A DNA stretch of 17,614 nt from a virus (taxonomy: Duplodnaviria; Heunggongvirae; Uroviricota; Caudoviricetes). This document shows, piece after piece, positions 5,525-13,538 of this stretch. Every line of letters starts with the position of its first letter. Position 1 is the first letter of the stretch. The notes beneath the pieces were generated by a model. It was not told where the DNA came from. It did not search any database and saw nothing but the letters and a program-made list of their open reading frames with translations. The position numbers and the translations under genes are program-made. The stretch is from positions 1-17,614 of IMG/VR virus record IMGVR_UViG_2609459833_000015; one strand, 5' to 3'.

Positions 5525-5745
5525 GCCACACCTCCCAGACGCTTAAACATTTTTCCGGAGCAAAAGGCTATAAGCGGCATACTGACGCGGTAATTACGGC
5601 CCAGCGGTTCACAAACCACCTTCTGACATTCACGGTCAACCAGGCTGACACGTAGAACATGCCCTGCAGGCGTGGTGTACCACTGACCAGGACGAGGACA
5701 ACGGAAAGTCTGATTGGTAAACCGTTTGAAAATATTCCGGATCAT
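5521..5745 (-). CDS. Hypothetical small Cys-containing protein
   Basis: ATG 5745 overlaps the Rha stop (ATGA); SD AAGGGGG five nt upstream; 74 aa. Confidence 0.4.
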   Translation of the reverse strand: MIRNIFKRFTNQTFRCPRPGQWYTTPAGHVLRVSLVDRECQKVVCEPLGRNYRVSMPLIAFCSGKMFKRLGGVA

Positions 5746-6287
5746 TTGCGCCCCCTTACCTCTGAAGGGTTCAGCGACAAATTTATGAGACTGGCCAGTA
5801 GCGCCGCGTCGTTGATGCGGTCATACAGACTTACAGCCAGCGGGGATTCGGCTTTTGCCAACATGGGATAAAGCTGCTGCAGCCAGACCTGATGAATTGA
5901 TGAAATGTAGGAATAGAGAACGCTGGCGTTATGTGCAACGTCGCTCAGTACAGAGGGATTTGAAAGCTGTTTCTCCATCTGGTTAAAGGCATTGATGTAT
6001 GCCTCTTTGAACTGGGCAGCACGTTTACCCGTGAAGCCCATGGCAAGAAACGCAAAACCGTCGCGGGTGATTTGATAGCAAGGTAGTTTGCGGCCTGTGC
6101 AATCGGTGTAATCACTCACCGAAAAATTGCGGGAAGTGAATGATGCAGAGCATTCAAGCGTGCGGATCTTTTTCAATACATCGTCATGCTGCTTGCAGAA
6201 ATATTCGGCAACGGCCAAAGAAGAAGTAACAGCCTGACCATCAACGATGGCAATTTCAGGTTGAGTGAGGGTTGGGATCGTAGCCAT
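5742..6287 (-). CDS. Rha-family phage regulatory protein
   Basis: FSVSDYTDCTGRKLPCYQITRDGFAFLAMGFTGKRAAQFKEAYINAFNQME matches the Rha family core as recalled; ATG 6287 with SD GGAGG; the track ORF 5742..6485 has a non-conserved N-terminal extension. Confidence 0.85.
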   Translation of the reverse strand: MATIPTLTQPEIAIVDGQAVTSSLAVAEYFCKQHDDVLKKIRTLECSASFTSRNFSVSDYTDCTGRKLPCYQITRDGFAFLAMGFTGKRAAQFKEAYINAFNQMEKQLSNPSVLSDVAHNASVLYSYISSIHQVWLQQLYPMLAKAESPLAVSLYDRINDAALLASLINLSLNPSEVRGRK

Positions 6288-6487
6288 GATGGCAGCCTCC
6301 GTTGACTGTGGAAAACTTCCACCACCGGAGCTGCGAAACACACAGGTGGCAGACGTACAGGGTTCGCGTACCGGCGTCAACAGACACCGGCGAGCCTTTC
6401 GGCTCCCCTGCACACCCCACCATAATTCTGGAGTGAGGAAACGCGCGCAAAAAAACCGCTGAAGCGTCATATATCGCATTGACAATT

Positions 6488-6883
6488 TCAGGACGCCAAT
6501 CCCGGCACCCGCTTTATAAGGTGCAGAGCAGTGTAACGTCCCGAAATTGCAGAATCAATATGCTGGTGGTCCTTCACACTCAACAAAATCACGCCTGAAT
6601 TTCCACAAAGGACTAAAGCACTCATGCGGGTAGTCTTTGCGAAGATAGATAACGCGCTGTGTTTCTGGCTCCCAACGAATAACATGGACATAAAGCCCTC
6701 TTCCGTCACGAAACCAGCGGTTAAGTTCCTGCACAACTCGCCCCCCACAGTCAGGTAAAGTTCTCTGTGGTTACTTACAGCCAGGTGATTTGGTAATCTG
6801 CATTCATGCCGTAACAACAGGTGTTCAGCGACGCTGACCACCAGCTGTTGCGACAAACGGTTATTTGCCGTTAAACTATTCAT
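6488..6883 (-). CDS. Hypothetical protein
   Basis: ATG 6883 overlaps the upstream stop (ATGA); SD GGAG in TGTGGAGAAACTAACGC; no family recognised. Confidence 0.35.
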   Translation of the reverse strand: MNSLTANNRLSQQLVVSVAEHLLLRHECRLPNHLAVSNHRELYLTVGGELCRNLTAGFVTEEGFMSMLFVGSQKHSALSIFAKTTRMSALVLCGNSGVILLSVKDHQHIDSAISGRYTALHLIKRVPGLAS

Positions 6884-7494
6884 GCGTTAGTTTCTCCACA
6901 ACCAGAAGCAATCGACGCCACGACGCCCGGAGCTGCACACTCGCGGGCGTTACTATTTTCTGGAGCGCAGAAGATTTTGTAGACCAGTGCTGCATGCTCC
7001 TGGAGCTTCGAAATTGAGAGGTACAGCTCGTCGTTAATTGCTGTCTTCTCATGCGGTTCCACTACACCGTCTTCGATTGCTGAACGAATCTGTCTGGAAT
7101 AACTGCCGATCTGTTCAATGACTTCCAGCAGACGCTGGTTAATATCGGCGTTGTCCACATCCTCGACGTCAGGAAGAGACACAAAGACGCCATTTGCAGA
7201 CTGCGCCACAGCGTCAGCAATGAAGTGAGTTCCACCAGCACGTTGTAAAATCATTGCCCATCCCAGCGGGAAAATCTGATCGCCATCGGCACGAAGGCGA
7301 TTGAATAAAGCGTTCTCTGTTACATCCAGCCAGTCAGCTGCTTCAGCGTAACCACCCGGCAACGCTGCGATAGTTTTTCTGACAGCTTTCACGTACCACT
7401 CAGGCTGTTTTTCTACTTTCCAGTGATGCTTACCCACGGTTAGCCTCATCGTTCTGTGGTTTCTGTTAATCGATTTATCCATTAGATTTTTCAT
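6880..7494 (-). CDS. Putative CII-like lysogeny regulator (CP76/YdaT-like)
   Basis: Immediately downstream of the cro-like gene; LDVTENALFNRLRADGDQIFPLGWAMIL region resembles phage regulatory CII (CP76) proteins as recalled; start ambiguous (ATG 7494, 7482 or 7449; the track ORF starts at GTG 7551 and overlaps cro). Confidence 0.45.
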   Translation of the reverse strand: MKNLMDKSINRNHRTMRLTVGKHHWKVEKQPEWYVKAVRKTIAALPGGYAEAADWLDVTENALFNRLRADGDQIFPLGWAMILQRAGGTHFIADAVAQSANGVFVSLPDVEDVDNADINQRLLEVIEQIGSYSRQIRSAIEDGVVEPHEKTAINDELYLSISKLQEHAALVYKIFCAPENSNARECAAPGVVASIASGCGETNA

Positions 7495-7675
7495 AAAGCT
7501 CAGGTTTAAATGGCAACCGTCCGCAAGTTCTATATGCAGCTTCTGCTGCACGTCCTTTTGGAATTAACTGGCCCGGACGGTTTCGCCACTGATAAACGGC
7601 TTCAGTTGTTATGCCGAAAAAAGCAGCAACTTTCTCAATACTGCCGAAGTAGCTTTCGATATCGTCAGTTGTCAT
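7475..7675 (-). CDS. Cro-like HTH regulator (YdaS/Cro family)
   Basis: 66 aa; HTH VAAFFGITTEAVYQWRNR; divergent from the CI repressor; SD GGAGGG before ATG 7675. Confidence 0.7.
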   Translation of the reverse strand: MTTDDIESYFGSIEKVAAFFGITTEAVYQWRNRPGQLIPKGRAAEAAYRTCGRLPFKPELYEKSNG

Positions 7676-7772
7676 ACGCCCTCCAAACTAAGTTTTATTA
7701 GATGCTAATTACAAATCTATCTTTGGTCAATAAAAACTAAGATTACTTAGCAATTCAAGAAATGGTGCTCCT
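7676..7772. promoter_or_regulatory. Immunity-region divergent promoter/operator region (PR-like leftward, PRM-like rightward)
   Basis: 97-bp AT-rich spacer between divergent cro-like and CI genes; minus-strand TTGACC (complement of 7725-7730) with a possible TAGCAT -10; AACTAAG at 7686-7692 and 7735-7741, and inverted CTAAG-N4-CTTAG at 7737-7750. Confidence 0.55.
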
Positions 7773-8399
7773 ATGGAAACGGTTGGTCAGCGTATAAAAG
7801 CTCTGAGAAGAGTTACCGGAACGTCCCAGAAAGAATTGGGTAAATTTTGTGGAGTAAGCGACGTTGCTGTGGGGTACTGGGAGAAAGACATCAATACCCC
7901 TGGTGGGGAGGCACTTTCGAAATTAGCGAAGTTCTTCAATACGTCAATAGATTACATTCTTTATGGTGCTGAGTTTGAAGGCAAACTCGTCACAAACATG
8001 CGCAGAGTTCCTGTAATATCGTGGGTTCAGGCTGGGCAGTTTACTGAGTGCAGGGCAGCAGAAGTGTTTAGTGAAGTGGACAAGTGGGTAGATACATCAT
8101 TAAAGATTGGTGATAACTCATTTGCATTAGAGGTTAAAGGTGACTCCATGACTAACCCTAATGGCCTCCCAACAATACCAGAAGGCGCAACAGTGATTGT
8201 AGATCCAGATGCAGAACCTCGTCATGGAAAAATAGTCATCGCTCGACTTGATGGAACAAACGAAGCTACAGTAAAAAAATTAGTCATCGATGGCCCTCAA
8301 AAGTTTTTAGTGCCATTAAATCCTCGGTATCCCAACATCCCTATCAATGGTAATTGCCTTATCATTGGTGTAGTCAAAGGAGTTCAATACGAACTCTAA
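7773..8399 (+). CDS. CI-like repressor (XRE-family HTH N-terminus, S24 LexA-like peptidase C-terminus)
   Basis: N-terminal HTH QKELGKFCGVSDVAVGYWE; C-terminal GDSM Ser-nucleophile motif and downstream Lys; 208 aa; divergent from cro-like gene. Confidence 0.85.
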   Translation: METVGQRIKALRRVTGTSQKELGKFCGVSDVAVGYWEKDINTPGGEALSKLAKFFNTSIDYILYGAEFEGKLVTNMRRVPVISWVQAGQFTECRAAEVFSEVDKWVDTSLKIGDNSFALEVKGDSMTNPNGLPTIPEGATVIVDPDAEPRHGKIVIARLDGTNEATVKKLVIDGPQKFLVPLNPRYPNIPINGNCLIIGVVKGVQYEL

Positions 8400-8605
8400 G
8401 ACCTCTCTTCTCTAACTAAGGCACCGAACTAAGAAAAGTTTGGTGTTTTCTCTTGCCATAATAACTAAGTTAAGTTAGATTTTATATCAAAGATAACGAA
8501 CAGGCAGGACGCCCACGAAGTAGCCGCCTGGGGCATATGAAGTCCAGGATGATTCGTTGAGTCATGTTGTGCCACCAGGCACTCATGTTAAAGCAGGTGT
8601 ATGAA

Positions 8606-8881
8606 ATGAAAGTCCAGATTTTAAACAATAACTGTGAAGTCGTTTGGTCATACGACATAGCCGCCCCTGTAGATCAGAGCGGCGATAGCTGGACCAATGG
8701 GAAACATCAGATTATGGCTGGAGTTGTGTTCTCTTTACGCCGTGCTTTGGAACAGGCTGAAGTATTTCCATCAGACCCTGAATGGAAATGGCCTTTTTCT
8801 ATTTGTCCAAATTCGGAGAGCACATTTCAGAAAATTGGTCAGAAAGTCGCACTCGAAGAGCATCAGCCAACTGTTTCCTGA
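8606..8881 (+). CDS. Hypothetical protein (first ORF downstream of CI)
   Basis: ATG 8606 with SD AGGTG six nt upstream; 91 aa, acidic, Trp-rich; 3' end overlaps the convergent ORF 8799..9044 by 83 bp and contains a plus-strand hairpin plus T-run. Confidence 0.35.
   Translation: MKVQILNNNCEVVWSYDIAAPVDQSGDSWTNGKHQIMAGVVFSLRRALEQAEVFPSDPEWKWPFSICPNSESTFQKIGQKVALEEHQPTVS
8764..8798 (+). terminator. Candidate intrinsic terminator (plus strand)
   Basis: ATTTCCAT (8764-8771), 10-nt loop, ATGGAAAT (8782-8789), then GGCC and TTTTT (8794-8798); AU-rich stem so likely weak. Confidence 0.3.
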
Positions 8882-9044
8882 TTTTTTCAGGTAACTCGTC
8901 GGCATCGCAGAAACAACAACGCTCGATCATGTTGAAAGCCGATTCGTAGAACTGTTTCTGCTGAGTGTCGCTGAGACAGGAAAAGAGCGACGTTACGATG
9001 ATTTTATTAATTGCATTATCAAGTTCTTTTTCATCAAAAGTCAT
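8799..9044 (-). CDS. Hypothetical protein (convergent to CI)
   Basis: ATG 9044 with SD AAGGA seven nt upstream; 81 aa with helical-looking hydrophilic composition; no family recognised. Confidence 0.4.
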   Translation of the reverse strand: MTFDEKELDNAINKIIVTSLFSCLSDTQQKQFYESAFNMIERCCFCDADELPEKIRKQLADALRVRLSDQFSEMCSPNLDK

Positions 9045-9284
9045 TTGATTTTCCTTTTATGTATACGGGCTTAAAAGGATACCACCGAGCCTGAAGTGGT
9101 GAAAAGACAGGCACATAACAGCTAAGTATTTTCAACCAAAGAGAATCCTTAGCGTTGTGGTGAATGCGGCTCAGCGCACGCGGGTTAAGGTTGAGGCTGA
9201 CAGTCGACCTTCTGTGGATACCCACCCGTCTGGTGTGCAACCTTCGCCAGGCACCGGGAGGCACCCGGCACCACAACTTTATGC

Positions 9285-9344
9285 TGTGTGTAGTCCTGGC
9301 GGTACCAGTTTGTACCCTTGCTTCCGGCTGGTACCGTCCTTTTT
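9285..9344 (+). ncRNA. DicF-like small RNA candidate ending in an intrinsic terminator
   Basis: 11-bp stem GGCGGTACCAG (9298-9308) paired with CTGGTACCGTC (9328-9338) followed by TTTTT (9340-9344); 5' arm GGCGGUACCAGUUUGUACCC closely resembles the DicF segment GGCGGUAUCAGUUUUACUCC as I recall it; 5' end not determinable. Confidence 0.45.
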
Positions 9345-9481
9345 ACAAAACAGAGAAGAGCATCACCGGACGACGGGCTCATAACCCAATCCATCCGGGC
9401 GGCAGTCACCGCAGGTGTTCTTCTCTGTTTTGTGGAGAAACTAACCGACCTTGCAGGGTCGATATGATGAGGAGCAGCAAA

Positions 9482-9844
9482 ATGGCTAGCGAACGCAGTA
9501 CTGATGTGCAGGCATTTATCGGGGAGCTGGACGGCGGCGTATTTGAAACCAAAATCGGCGCAGTTCTCAGTGAAGTCGCTTCCGGTGTGATGAACACGAA
9601 AACCAAAGGTAAGGTCTCACTCAACCTGGAAATCGAACCATTTGATGAGAACCGTGTGAAAATCAAACACAAACTCTCATATGTTCGCCCGACTAACCGC
9701 GGGAAAATTTCCGAAGAAGACACCACCGAAACGCCGATGTATGTCAATCGCGGTGGTCGCCTGACTATTCTGCAGGAAGACCAGGGACAATTACTGACTC
9801 TTGCCGGTGAACCTGACGGAAAACTCCGCGCAGCAGGTCATTAA
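9482..9844 (+). CDS. YfdP-like prophage protein
   Basis: 120 aa from ATG 9482 (SD GAGGAG 9469-9474), matching YfdP length and position upstream of YfdQ/R-like genes; alternative start ATG 9464. Confidence 0.5.
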   Translation: MASERSTDVQAFIGELDGGVFETKIGAVLSEVASGVMNTKTKGKVSLNLEIEPFDENRVKIKHKLSYVRPTNRGKISEEDTTETPMYVNRGGRLTILQEDQGQLLTLAGEPDGKLRAAGH

Positions 9845-9909
9845 TATCGTTCTTAATTAACTGATTATTTATCTCATCACTGAATATCTTAATATAGTGA
9901 GGACTTATT

Positions 9910-13171: not shown

Positions 13172-13350
13172 AAAACCGTAAGGCAAAAATTCTGTTAGCT
13201 CGCAGAAACGGTGTTGGGGTCTGGCGATGGTTGAGGATTAGTAACAGACGAGTGAGGTTGACGGGGTGTTGCGGGGTGATGGGGCACAGTTGTTGCAAAA
13301 AGCCTAGCGCGTCACAGAACAGGCGGAAGAAAGGGTACGCAGTAAGATGA
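13168..13350 (+). CDS. Small Arg/Trp-rich protein, paralogue A (60 aa)
   Basis: Shares MKNRKAK, WLR(I/V)SNRRV(R/V)L and SA(S/A)QNR blocks with the next ORF; conserved residues use different synonymous codons (aga vs cgc, cga vs cgt). Confidence 0.5.
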   Translation: MKNRKAKILLARRNGVGVWRWLRISNRRVRLTGCCGVMGHSCCKKPSASQNRRKKGYAVR

Positions 13351-13538
13351 AAAACCGTAAAGCAAAGATGCTTATCTCCCGTGTATACAGACGTTGCTAT
13401 CCCAGCCAGTGGTTGAGAGTTAGCAATCGCCGTGTGGTGTTGTACTTATATTCTGGAATTGCCAGAGAGGGAATCAAAGATAAGCGCAGCGCGGCGCAAA
13501 ACCGCTGGAAAAACCACTTACGCACTAAAGGAGCCTGA
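13347..13538 (+). CDS. Small Arg/Trp-rich protein, paralogue B (63 aa)
   Basis: Tandem paralogue of 13168..13350 with an in-frame 3-nt indel; ATGA overlap with the upstream stop. Confidence 0.5.
   Translation: MKNRKAKMLISRVYRRCYPSQWLRVSNRRVVLYLYSGIAREGIKDKRSAAQNRWKNHLRTKGA

What the first reader, a model, noticed from the sequence alone, without database searches (positions are those of the whole stretch)
9045..9481. Roughly 440-bp structured non-coding region before the first long early gene, with no N-like antiterminator ORF
No arginine-rich N-like ORF is visible between the CI gene and the yfdP-like gene. Instead the region is GC-rich with nested hairpins (GCCTG...CAGGC at 9089-9112; CCGGG-AGGCA-CCCGG at 9255-9269) and two terminator-like structures in series. 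The track ORFs here (9157..9384 plus, 9185..9409 minus) run straight through the terminator hairpins and look non-coding. This could mean RNA-based processive antitermination (put-like), or an operon deliberately attenuated upstream of the yfdPQRS-like module.
Basis: inference. Interest (0 to 1): 0.5.

Follow-up and report, generated by a model that had tools for sequence, protein, structure and literature searches.

The report
Structured RNA leader with tandem terminators
The 440 bases ahead of the prophage's early-left genes encode no protein but a conserved, pseudoknotted RNA related to the prophage small-RNA family STnc100/PasD, followed by two terminator hairpins, and the same sequence is annotated as the protein gene ymfH in E. 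coli K-12.

Summary
Window 9045-9481 is non-coding, G+C-rich and far more structured than chance (z = -5.9). It lies in the early-left operon of an SfV/e14-like lambdoid prophage that has no N-like gene.

It is a mosaic:
- a 35-nt hairpin module shared with lambda and P22 (9081-9115);
- a 124-nt multibranch, pseudoknotted RNA domain (9154-9277), a divergent relative of Rfam STnc100/PasD (39.5 bits, below the cut-off of 47);
- a conserved single-stranded motif (9283-9295);
- intrinsic terminator T1 (9298-9344);
- a long three-way helix T2 (9340-9438);
- a hairpin ahead of the yfdP ribosome-binding site.

Stems are kept by compensatory changes between E. coli, Salmonella and other lineages. Indels that are not multiples of three exclude every ORF. 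Published Term-seq data for the 91%-identical e14 copy ("ymfH") place RNA 3' ends exactly at the T1 U-tract, just after the domain, and just after the first hairpin.

A covariance model of HK022 put finds nothing here, so it is not a put family member.

Most likely it is an attenuator/insulator that also releases a terminated sRNA-like transcript. A put-like antiterminator function is not excluded, because this variant sits downstream of the repressor gene in phages without a recognisable N.

The parts
8453..8481 (+). Predicted early-left promoter pL (TTGCCA-17-TAGATT), overlapped by OL operator repeats AACTAAG-N6-TTAG (8414-8480). This is context for the finding, not part of it.
   Evidence: Promoter scan. 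The repeats are shared with the cro/cI intergenic region at 7686-7703 and 7735-7750.
9081..9115 (+). 35-nt module holding hairpin GCCUG(9089-9093)/CAGGC(9108-9112). It is shared with lambda, P22 and HK629, where it lies upstream of the antisense sieB-type gene. Here it lies upstream of the minus-strand ORF 8799-9044. It marks an RNA 3' end.
   Evidence: 94% identity to lambda, P22 and other phages, with context. In e14 the Term-seq 3' end at 1201423 falls 2 nt after the hairpin and is seen in all three growth conditions, with the highest read counts of the three ends in this region.
9154..9277 (+). Multibranch RNA domain, a divergent ('B-type') relative of STnc100/PasD. The closing helix P1 is 9154-9162 with 9269-9277. 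The junction GGUGAAU is at 9159-9165, overlapping the last four bases of the P1 5' strand.
   Evidence: Rfam STnc100 matches over the full model length at 39.5 bits, E 8e-7, below the gathering score of 47. Family model R2 gives 81.5 bits (the window sequence was in the training set). P1 covaries across 75 family sequences: UA/CG/UG, GC/AU and UA/CG.
9187..9193 (+). 5' strand of the pseudoknot (AAGGUUG). It pairs with the loop of hairpin Pd.
   Evidence: In about 63 of 75 family sequences, the best complement to the Pd loop lies 18-23 nt after GGUGAAU, and the paired sequences differ widely between members. 79% of own pairings score at least 5.5, against 29% when loops are matched to other members' junctions.
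9228..9252 (+). Hairpin Pd. Its loop (9238-9244, CAACCUU) is the 3' strand of the pseudoknot.
   Evidence: A hairpin is present at this position in all 75 family sequences, with very different stem sequences.
9254..9268 (+). Hairpin Pe, CCGGG-AGGCA-CCCGG. It is the signature of the family and stacks directly on the P1 3' strand.
   Evidence: Upper-case (highly conserved) positions in the Rfam STnc100 consensus. The 19-mer is present in more than 120 IMG/VR loci. There is only one copy in the window.
9283..9295 (+). Conserved single-stranded motif GCUGUGUGUAGUC between the domain and T1. It is a candidate seed or processing site.
   Evidence: Kept in four lineages whose T1 stems differ (window type, ST64B type, L305 type, L331 type). 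No complementary site above chance in the window.
9298..9344 (+). Intrinsic terminator T1: stem 9298-9309/9327-9338, a 17-nt loop, then C plus UUUUU.
   Evidence: The fold and the alignment fold agree. Five of its 12 pairs show compensatory changes, and the Salmonella version has a different stem and 20 extra loop nt. In e14 the Term-seq 3' end at 1201195 falls on the last U of the tract.
9340..9438 (+). T2, a 24-bp helix (9340-9363 with 9415-9438). It pairs the T1 U-tract with GGAGA (9434-9438) and carries UUUUGU in its 3' arm. Its apex is a three-way junction (9366-9398 and 9403-9414) that includes an initiator-tRNA-like anticodon stem-loop at 9375-9387. It is a likely second terminator and a possible RNase III substrate.
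   Evidence: Consensus fold and pair counts: 98.6% of cells in this helix are paired, with compensatory pairs at 9355/9423 and in the apical helices. The RNase III role is inference.
9446..9461 (+). Hairpin (CGACC-UUGCAG-GGUCG) just upstream of the yfdP ribosome-binding site (GAGGAG, 9469-9474) and start codon (9482).
   Evidence: Three of its five pairs show compensatory changes, and the stem is entirely different in ST64B (GGCGG/CCGCC) and in other E. coli variants (CGCCCC/GGGGGC).

Best explanation
The region is a conserved non-coding leader of the early-left (pL) operon.

Proposed course of events: transcripts start at pL (about 8488) or read through from the repressor gene. They cross orf33 and meet three successive RNA 3'-end-forming structures: the hairpin at 9089-9112, the intrinsic terminator T1, and the long helix T2. 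Only then do they reach yfdP, the downstream genes, xis and int.

Between the first hairpin and T1 lies a 124-nt pseudoknotted domain homologous to the scaffold of the STnc100/PasD prophage sRNAs. It is followed by a conserved single-stranded motif.

I propose two functions.
(a) The stacked terminators act as a multiplicative attenuator or insulator. They keep the weak immunity-region transcription of a lysogen out of the lytic and recombination genes. They still let a useful fraction of the strong, derepressed pL transcription through.
(b) Termination at T1 releases an RNA of scaffold, seed-like motif and terminator hairpin with U-tail, about 190 nt if measured from P1. This RNA would behave like its STnc100/PasD relatives, which are Hfq-associated and trans-acting, much as DicF is embedded in the dicB operon.

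What is shown:
- non-coding status;
- the fold and its covariation;
- the pseudoknot;
- family relationship to STnc100;
- position downstream of the repressor gene;
- in-vivo 3' ends in the e14 copy.

What is inferred:
- partial rather than complete termination;
- the insulator role;
- Hfq binding and trans action;
- RNase III cleavage of T2;
- any role of the scaffold itself.
For: Layout. The window reads Q ... cro (minus strand) | cI, orf33, this leader, yfdPQR ... xis, int (plus strand). OL/pL is at 8414-8481.

Non-coding.
- E. coli and Salmonella versions differ by 1-, 1- and 20-nt indels. The e14 copy differs from the window by single-base deletions.
- PGAP itself calls the ORF 'frameshifted'.
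- ST64B annotators placed no gene here.
- No Pfam hits.

Structure.
- Fold z-score is -5.9.
- Across the T1-T2-hairpin segment, 96.1% of cells are paired, against 45-54% when partners are slid. Eleven pairs have changes on both sides, against 1-4 when slid, and only 1 of 500 shuffles reaches that.
- P1, Pd and the pseudoknot covary across 75 family members.

Family.
- Full-length match to STnc100 at E 8e-7.
- The shared core 19-mer retrieves loci most of which are STnc100 at gathering score.
- STnc100 and PasD are expressed, confirmed by Northern blot, and Hfq-associated (PMC5331693; bioRxiv 10.64898/2026.05.13.724894).
- Fifty of 59 clusters retrieved with the core 19-mer (most of them canonical STnc100) have a terminator 30-150 nt downstream.

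In vivo.
- Term-seq in K-12 (PMC7815308, supplementary file 1) lists 3' ends in e14 at the last U of T1, 4 nt after P1, and 2 nt after the first hairpin.
- e14 ymfH, xisE and intE belong to one SOS-responsive iModulon together with ymfJ and ymfT. This implies read-through on induction (PMC12132413).
Against: - About half of the B-type clusters have no terminator after the domain and run straight into an ORF about 35 nt later. The scaffold must therefore do something that does not need T1.
- No promoter was found directly upstream of the domain in the window, unlike canonical STnc100. The 5' end of any released RNA is therefore unknown.
- No target for the seed-like motif was found in the window.
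- The Term-seq evidence comes from e14, whose Pe hairpin is mutated, and from uninduced cells.
- Terminator efficiencies are unknown.
- The apparent invariance of the core is partly an artefact of retrieving loci with exact-match patterns.
Confidence: 0.5

Rival explanations
1. The pseudoknotted domain is a cis-acting processive antiterminator, like put in function but unrelated in sequence. It would bind the transcribing RNA polymerase, possibly with Nus factors recruited by a boxA-like sequence. It would carry the polymerase through T1, T2 and later terminators, and so replace N-nut in this group of phages.
For: - It sits where nutL/N or putL sit. In 10 of 19 B-type clusters a CI/C2-like repressor gene lies 340-1750 nt upstream in the same orientation.
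- No lambda, P22 or HK629 N homologue, and no Nun homologue, occurs in 125 B-type loci.
- The family model finds no copy in the early regions of five N- or put-carrying phages.
- Terminators follow it directly.
- A near-invariant core across mosaic phages suggests a host-machine partner.
- Many B-type loci carry UGCUCU(U/C), which resembles boxA, 4-9 nt upstream of P1.
Against: - T1 is maintained by compensatory change and gives a real 3' end in e14. A terminator placed 20 nt after an always-on antiterminator would serve no purpose.
- Canonical relatives accumulate as discrete terminated RNAs of about 200 nt.
- There is no second copy in the rightward operon.
- It is not related to put.
- The boxA-like motif is degenerate in the window itself (AAUCCUUAG).
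Confidence: 0.15
2. The domain is a sensor, either a riboswitch aptamer or the binding site of a regulatory protein. It would switch T1 (or, in other members, translation initiation) on and off in response to a cellular signal.
For: - It has aptamer-like complexity: a multi-helix junction, a pseudoknot, and conserved junction and loop nucleotides.
- The downstream 'expression platforms' vary: a terminator in some members, an adjacent ribosome-binding site in others.
- Tandem copies occur.
- Many riboswitch leaders were first catalogued as sRNAs (general knowledge).
Against: - No mutually exclusive antiterminator pairing was found. The terminator 5' arm pairs no better with its own domain or linker than with those of other members (5.98 vs 5.74, and 3.59 vs 3.73).
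- The linker between P1 and the terminator is 20-60 nt and variable.
- Downstream genes are functionally unrelated.
- orf33 does not co-occur with the element.
Confidence: 0.1
3. The domain is a nut-like site for a protein antiterminator that has not been recognised, either a phage protein (for example Orf33/YmfJ, the first gene after pL) or a host protein.
For: - The order pL, first small gene, RNA element, terminators mirrors lambda's pL, nutL, N, tL1.
- Orf33 belongs to a PHROG family of unknown function.
- A boxA-like motif occurs in relatives.
Against: - Orf33 is not arginine-rich. Among 18 other B-type clusters it has only one, weak homologue.
- ST64B has no annotated gene between cI and the element.
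- The Pe loop AGGCA is not a GNRA-like boxB loop (sequence).
- No ORF with an arginine-rich motif lies near pL.
Confidence: 0.07
4. The region encodes a protein: YmfH on the plus strand, or the PHROG 3651-type ORF on the minus strand.
For: - K-12 annotates ymfH (103 aa) over the e14 copy.
- PGAP annotates a CDS here.
- The minus-strand ORF 9185-9409 hits phrog_3651 at E 1.5e-49, and e14 YmfH hits phrog_33599.
Against: - In the window, every one of these ORFs is truncated or frameshifted relative to its 'family'.
- Indels between lineages are 1, 1 and 20 nt.
- Substitutions are compensatory in RNA stems.
- No Pfam domains.
- PHROG families are built from deposited ORF calls, so they inherit spurious ones.
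Confidence: 0.03

Closest known systems
STnc100 (Rfam RF02076) and PasD sRNAs of lambdoid prophages
   Same: - Same fold: P1 closing helix with GGUGAAU, a first hairpin with a GCG loop, hairpin Pd, the signature hairpin CCGGG-AGGCA-CCCGG stacked on P1, then a linker and an intrinsic terminator.
- The match covers the full model length.
- The same pseudoknot is present in both types.
   Different: - It scores below the Rfam gathering threshold (39.5 vs 47 bits), as did all five B-type loci scanned.
- The first hairpin has a different sequence (GCGGCUCAGCGCACGC instead of CCCCCUGUGCGGAGGGG).
- No promoter lies directly upstream.
- It sits in the early-left operon downstream of the repressor gene. 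Canonical copies are stand-alone units, often in tandem and next to tRNA genes, near Q, stx and the lysis genes.
- Half of its close relatives lack the terminator.
HK022/HK639 put antiterminator RNAs
   Same: - A cis-encoded structured RNA in the early-left operon of a lambdoid phage that has no N.
- Located upstream of terminators.
   Different: - No sequence or structure similarity; the put covariance model finds nothing.
- About 124 nt with a pseudoknot, against about 70 nt with two stems.
- It lies about 665 nt downstream of pL rather than at +1.
- There is no counterpart in the rightward operon.
- Its own terminator T1 is demonstrably used.
DicF in the dicB operon of prophage Qin
   Same: - An sRNA embedded in the early operon next to the immunity region of a defective lambdoid prophage, ending at an intrinsic terminator.
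- There is a weak resemblance of single-stranded motif plus terminator.
   Different: - The Rfam DicF match is insignificant (15.7 bits, E 2.4).
- DicF has no large structured scaffold.
- DicF processing by RNase III and RNase E is known from the literature (my own knowledge). It is not shown for this element.
Lambda nutL-N-tL1 arrangement
   Same: - Promoter-proximal RNA element plus terminator ahead of the recombination and xis-int genes.
- The 35-nt module at 9081-9115 is literally shared with lambda and P22, where it lies downstream of N and upstream of sieB.
   Different: - No N protein.
- No boxB-type hairpin.
- Only a degenerate boxA-like sequence.

Membership tests
HK022-type put RNA | Two-stem RNA of about 70 nt with conserved GAACGG, GUCGG and GGCGGGUUCAGGAUGAACGGCAAU | tested here: not met
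   Model R1, built from 7 put sequences, scores its own members at 58-96 bits. It gives no hit in 8400-9500, and the best window hits have E > 0.5 elsewhere. A 13-of-15 nt resemblance (GCGGGUUAAGGUUGA) falls in a different structural context.
HK022-type put RNA | Position just downstream of pL (putL) and about 270 nt downstream of pR (putR) | tested here: inconclusive
   The domain starts about 665 nt downstream of the predicted pL. There is no second copy in the rightward operon. HK639 is also annotated with only a putL.
HK022-type put RNA | Protein-independent antitermination that depends on the beta-prime zinc-binding domain | not testable with these tools
   Needs transcription assays and rpoC mutants.
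STnc100 (RF02076) / PasD | Score at or above the Rfam gathering threshold (47 bits) | tested here: not met
   39.5 bits, E 8.3e-7 in a 1.25-kb search. Absent from the gathering-threshold scan of the window.
STnc100 (RF02076) / PasD | Shared architecture: P1 with GGUGAAU, the signature hairpin CCGGGAGGCACCCGG stacked on P1, and a 3' terminator | tested here: met
   The alignment to the model covers positions 1-206. The family alignment is A2. Model R2 gives 81.5 bits for the window (which was in the training set) and 62.9 bits for the e14 copy (which was not).
STnc100 (RF02076) / PasD | Pseudoknot between the junction after the first hairpin and the loop of Pd (defined here) | tested here: met
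   AAGGUUG (9187-9193) pairs with CAACCUU (9238-9244), at the same offset as in canonical members.
STnc100 (RF02076) / PasD | Own sigma-70 promoter placing the 5' end at P1 | tested here: inconclusive
   Canonical members show TTGACA-type promoters directly upstream. None was found upstream of 9154.
STnc100 (RF02076) / PasD | Hfq association and trans-acting base-pairing | not testable with these tools
   Known for PasD and STnc100 from the literature. Not examined for this variant.
Lambda-type N/nut antitermination | Arginine-rich N protein encoded as the first pL gene | tested here: not met
   Pfam and PHROGs give no N family. The scan for arginine-rich motifs finds none near pL. tblastn with three N proteins and Nun finds nothing in 125 related loci.
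Lambda-type N/nut antitermination | boxA followed by a 15-nt boxB hairpin with a GNRA-like pentaloop | tested here: not met
   The Pe loop is AGGCA. The boxA-like UGCUCU(U/C) seen in relatives is degenerate here (AAUCCUUAG).
Intrinsic (Rho-independent) terminator, for T1 | G+C-rich hairpin followed by a U-tract, with an RNA 3' end in the tract in vivo | tested here: met
   Stem of 11-12 bp at about -20.7 kcal/mol, followed by UUUUU. In e14 the Term-seq 3' end falls on the last U. The in-vivo evidence comes from the 91%-identical e14 copy, not from this strain.
Transcriptional riboswitch / attenuator | Mutually exclusive antiterminator pairing between the sensor domain and the terminator 5' arm | tested here: not met
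   Complementarity within each member equals that between members in 50 family members.
Protein-coding gene (ymfH or the PHROG 3651 ORF) | Reading frame conserved among homologues | tested here: not met
   Indels of 1, 1 and 20 nt between lineages. PGAP labels the ORF 'frameshifted'. The ORFs are split in the window.

The most novel reading that the evidence does not exclude
The pseudoknotted STnc100-type scaffold is not just sRNA packaging. It would be an RNA that binds a conserved host machine, either RNA polymerase with Nus factors or another global factor. In its B-type form at the head of the early-left operon, it would replace N-nut in a large group of N-less lambdoid phages (SfV, SfII, SfIV, ST64B, e14 and many prophages). 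That would make it a second class of RNA antiterminator, unrelated to put, or else a new phage riboswitch class.
Probability: 0.15. Interest if true: 0.85.

Novelty: new variant of a known kind. Interest (0 to 1): 0.55.

Why it matters
- It reassigns an E. coli K-12 'y-gene' (ymfH) and thousands of 'hypothetical protein' or 'frameshifted' annotations to a structured RNA.
- It shows that the STnc100/PasD prophage sRNA family has a conserved pseudoknotted scaffold.
- It therefore offers a concrete candidate for how SfV/ST64B/e14-type phages gate their early-left genes, including xis and int, and gives a defined set of mutants to test.
- If the scaffold binds a host factor, this would be a new regulatory RNA class. 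Part or all of the 437-nt region is present in about half of sequenced E. coli genomes.

Tried and rejected
- **HK022-type put:** model R1 found nothing. A 13/15-nt similarity to put stem II lies in a different structural context and is taken as chance.
- **tRNA gene:** ARAGORN finds none, and Rfam tRNA does not appear even at E <= 10.
- **DicF membership:** 15.7 bits, E 2.4. Rejected.
- **Riboswitch-style antiterminator pairing:** no excess complementarity. In the window, the Pd 3' arm (CGCCAGG) is complementary to the T1 5' arm (CCUGGCG), but this is not conserved in ST64B, so I dismissed it.
- **Second copy of the element in the rightward operon:** none.
- **Target of the seed-like motif within the window:** not above chance.
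- **Orf33 as a dedicated partner protein:** it does not co-occur with the element.
- **ops/RfaH site:** GGCGGTA in T1 resembles ops, but the rest does not match and it is not conserved in Salmonella. Rejected by eye.
- **N or Nun homologues:** none in 125 related loci. An ORF with an arginine-rich motif at 13347-13538 lies 4.8 kb downstream of pL, beyond T1 and T2, so it cannot act on them.
- **Wasted effort:** the single genome-contig scan, run with a 15-mer, was swamped by chance matches.
- **Alignment limits:** MAFFT alignment of the whole family is unreliable in the variable middle. The pseudoknot and Pd statistics were therefore computed with my own scripts rather than with the count of structure pairs.
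Full report
**Context**

The window is an SfV/e14-like lambdoid prophage integrated next to mlrA. The 1.5 kb around the finding (8400-9900) is 100% identical to E. coli EC2.

Genes from Q (1-389) to cro (7475-7675) lie on the minus strand. On the plus strand lie the repressor cI (7773-8399), a small ORF (orf33/ymfJ-like, 8606-8881), the region in question, then yfdP (9482-9844), yfdQ, yfdR and further genes up to xis and int.

Operator-like repeats AACTAAG-N6-TTAG occur between cro and cI and again at 8414-8480. There they overlap a promoter-like site (TTGCCA-17-TAGATT, 8453-8481). The finding therefore lies in the early-left (pL) operon, about 600-1000 nt downstream of pL. That is the territory of N, nutL and tL1 in lambda.

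**The observation**

All the stated features are present, and they are not chance.
- G+C is 0.54-0.60 against 0.33-0.48 in the flanks.
- Fold energy has z = -5.89.
- The two named hairpins are there, one of them shifted by a single base (9254-9268).
- Two terminator-like structures stand in series.
- No N-like ORF is found by Pfam or PHROGs, by a scan for arginine-rich motifs, or in the RefSeq annotation.

**Conservation and coding status**

All or part of the 437 nt occurs in 2785 of 5426 complete E. coli genomes. It also occurs in phages SfV (99.1%), SfII, SfIV, mEp460-type phages, Salmonella ST64B and 118970_sal3 (77-79%), and in prophage e14 of K-12 (91%).

Annotators disagree about what it is:
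- 'terminator' only in SfV;
- nothing in ST64B;
- the protein gene ymfH in K-12;
- 'frameshifted hypothetical protein' in EC2.

PHROGs contains ORF families for both strands, and the window matches them only in fragments.

The aligned E. coli and Salmonella versions differ by 1-, 1- and 20-nt indels. The e14 copy differs from the window by single-base deletions. No frame on either strand survives these. I conclude that the region is non-coding.

**Anatomy**

*(i) 9081-9115.* This 35-nt module contains the hairpin 9089-9112. It is 94% identical to a segment of lambda, P22, HK629 and many other phages. In those phages it lies downstream of N and just upstream of the antisense sieB-type gene. Here it lies upstream of the minus-strand ORF 8799-9044 (phrog_3311).

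*(ii) 9154-9277.* This is a multibranch domain. Rfam's STnc100 model matches it over its full length, but below threshold (39.5 bits against a gathering score of 47; E 8e-7). Its hairpin CCGGGAGGCACCCGG and the adjacent CACC, used as a 19-mer, retrieved more than 120 IMG/VR loci. These fall into 59 clusters at 90% identity. Most are STnc100 at gathering score, frequently in tandem arrays of up to four and next to phage tRNA genes.

The window belongs to a distinct 'B type' with a different first hairpin (GUGGUGAAUGCGGCUCAGCGCACGCGG). A second pattern scan retrieved 117 copies in 19 clusters.

Across 75 non-identical family sequences:
- P1 covaries;
- Pd is always a hairpin, though its sequence is almost free;
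- the Pd loop pairs with the segment 18-23 nt after GGUGAAU in about 63 of 75 cases, using many different sequences.

Seventy-nine percent of own pairings score at least 5.5, against 29% when loops are matched to other members' junctions. This is a conserved pseudoknot. In the window it joins 9187-9193 with 9238-9244.

One caveat applies. The invariance of the core is partly built in by retrieval with exact patterns. The pseudoknot, P1 and Pd evidence is independent of those patterns.

*(iii) 9283-9295.* The motif GCUGUGUGUAGUC is single-stranded. It is conserved in four lineages whose T1 stems differ.

*(iv) T1.* The stem is 9298-9309/9327-9338, followed by C plus U5.

*(v) T2.* This is a 24-bp helix, 9340-9363 with 9415-9438. 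It pairs the T1 U-tract with a GGAGA motif and has a three-way apex.

*(vi) Hairpin 9446-9461.* It lies just ahead of the yfdP ribosome-binding site.

For parts iv-vi, 96.1% of cells are paired across 12 sequences, against 45-54% when the partners are slid. Eleven pairs have changes on both sides, against 1-4 when slid, and 1 of 500 shuffles reaches that number. The independent lineages are few, so this is good but not overwhelming support.

**Experimental anchor**

Adams et al. 2021 (PMC7815308, supplementary file 1) list Term-seq 3' ends in K-12. Each entry gives 61 nt, and the 3' end is base 51. I checked this layout on sgrS.

In e14, on the strand equivalent to the window's plus strand, there are three ends:
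- 1201195, the last U of the T1 tract;
- 1201257, 4 nt after the P1 3' strand;
- 1201423, 2 nt after the 9089-9112-type hairpin. This one is seen in all three conditions and has the highest counts of the three.

T1 is therefore used in vivo. The domain also survives as a stable 3'-trimmed species. These data come from an uninduced, defective prophage whose Pe hairpin is mutated.

The e14 genes ymfH, xisE and intE are also reported in one SOS-type iModulon with ymfJ and ymfT (PMC12132413). This implies that transcription does get through on induction.

**Is it put?**

No. A covariance model of seven put RNAs finds its own members at 58-96 bits and nothing in this leader. The family model R2 finds exactly one copy in the window. 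It finds none in the early regions of O276 (a hybrid carrying the HK022 immunity region), HK639, HK629, a P22-like phage or lambda imm434.

**Where the B type sits**

- In 10 of 19 B-type clusters, a CI/C2-like repressor gene lies 340-1750 nt upstream in the same orientation.
- The first downstream genes are unrelated to each other.
- No homologue of lambda, P22 or HK629 N, or of Nun, is found in 125 B-type loci. N proteins are diverse, so this is suggestive only.
- About half of the B-type clusters have a terminator after the domain. The other half run into an ORF about 35 nt later.
- Fifty of the 59 clusters retrieved with the core 19-mer (most of them canonical STnc100) have a terminator.

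**Mechanism**

The evidence best fits an attenuator or insulator that also produces a terminated, sRNA-like transcript. Three successive end-forming structures stand between the immunity region and the lytic and recombination genes. T1 is maintained by compensatory evolution and is used in vivo. The scaffold, seed-like motif and terminator layout is that of its Hfq-associated relatives STnc100 and PasD.

A constitutive cis-antiterminator placed 20 nt before a conserved, functional terminator would make little sense, and its relatives accumulate as terminated RNAs. I therefore rank the put-like function second (0.15).

It cannot be dismissed. The element sits downstream of the repressor gene, as nutL/N do, in phages without a recognisable N. 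Its core is near-invariant. Half of its relatives lack a terminator altogether, so the scaffold has a role of its own that I cannot name.

A riboswitch-type switch ranks third (0.10), because no alternative pairing with the terminator was detectable. A nut-like site for an unknown protein (0.07) and protein coding (0.03) rank lowest.

**Novelty**

STnc100 and PasD are known sRNA families of unknown function. As far as the searched literature shows, four things are new:
- the B-type branch in the early-left operon;
- the pseudoknot;
- the reassignment of ymfH to this RNA;
- the tandem-terminator leader architecture with its covariation.

I file it as a new variant of a known kind.

Noticed in passing
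window 6342-6524 (-): Rfam gathering-level hits to C4 antisense RNA (65.1 bits) and isrK (54.3 bits) lie side by side in the rightward operon. They fall inside what RefSeq annotates as a Rha-family regulator gene. This points to a second, RNA-based immunity or antirepressor module of the P1 c4-ant or Gifsy isrK type.
   Followed up: no
window 9081-9115 (+) and minus-strand ORF 8799-9044: A 35-nt hairpin module is shared at 94% with lambda, P22, HK629 and many other phages, always just upstream of an antisense sieB-type gene. In e14 the strongest local Term-seq 3' end lies 2 nt after this hairpin. An RNA ending here would be antisense to the 5' region of the minus-strand gene. From memory, this recalls the P22 sas/sieB arrangement.
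   Followed up: partly
window 9373-9389 (+), apex of T2: CGGGCUCAUAACCC forms a stem-loop with three G-C pairs and a CAU 'anticodon'. From memory, it is identical to the anticodon arm of E. coli initiator tRNA. The segment 9351-9401 gives weak BLAST hits to tRNA genes of Klebsiella phages (E 2e-4). ARAGORN finds no tRNA. The loop differs in e14 (UUAAUAA).
   Followed up: partly
L040, L274, L284, L286, L305, L341, L346 (4-9 nt upstream of P1); window 9143-9151: Many B-type relatives carry UGCUCU(U/C) or CGCUCUUU, which resembles boxA, just upstream of the domain. The window has only a degenerate version (AAUCCUUAG). It could recruit NusB/NusE, or it could be part of a promoter.
   Followed up: partly
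L008, L016, L026 (IMG/VR loci): Canonical STnc100 units, each with its own promoter and terminator, occur in tandem arrays of up to four. They lie directly next to clusters of phage tRNA genes.
   Followed up: no
window 8606-8881 (+) and 8799-9044 (-): Two convergent ORFs overlap by 83 nt. Each matches its own PHROG family of unknown function (phrog_3195 and phrog_3311). The same arrangement exists in e14 (ymfJ and ymfI). It is unclear whether both are real genes.
   Followed up: no
e14 coordinate 1203751 (K-12 minus strand); window about 6904-6964 (+): Term-seq lists an extremely abundant 3' end (14-50 million reads) antisense to ymfL in e14. It follows the hairpin GACGCC...GGCGUC. Part of that sequence (GACGCCACGACGCC) is present in the window at 6914-6927. 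This would be an abundant RNA antisense to the rightward early operon.
   Followed up: no
L129 (Salmonella phage 118970_sal3) and L040, between the 35-nt module and the domain: The Salmonella sal3-type version carries an insertion of about 110 nt. It contains two sequences resembling tRNA T-arms (GGTTCGATTCC and GGTCCGTTCAATTCGGAC).
   Followed up: no
window 5735-6883 (-): RefSeq annotates one 382-aa Rha-family CDS in EC2 at the matching position. The window's mechanical ORF list instead shows two ORFs in different frames (6488-6883 and 5742-6485). Either the window differs from EC2 here, or the annotated CDS needs checking.
   Followed up: no
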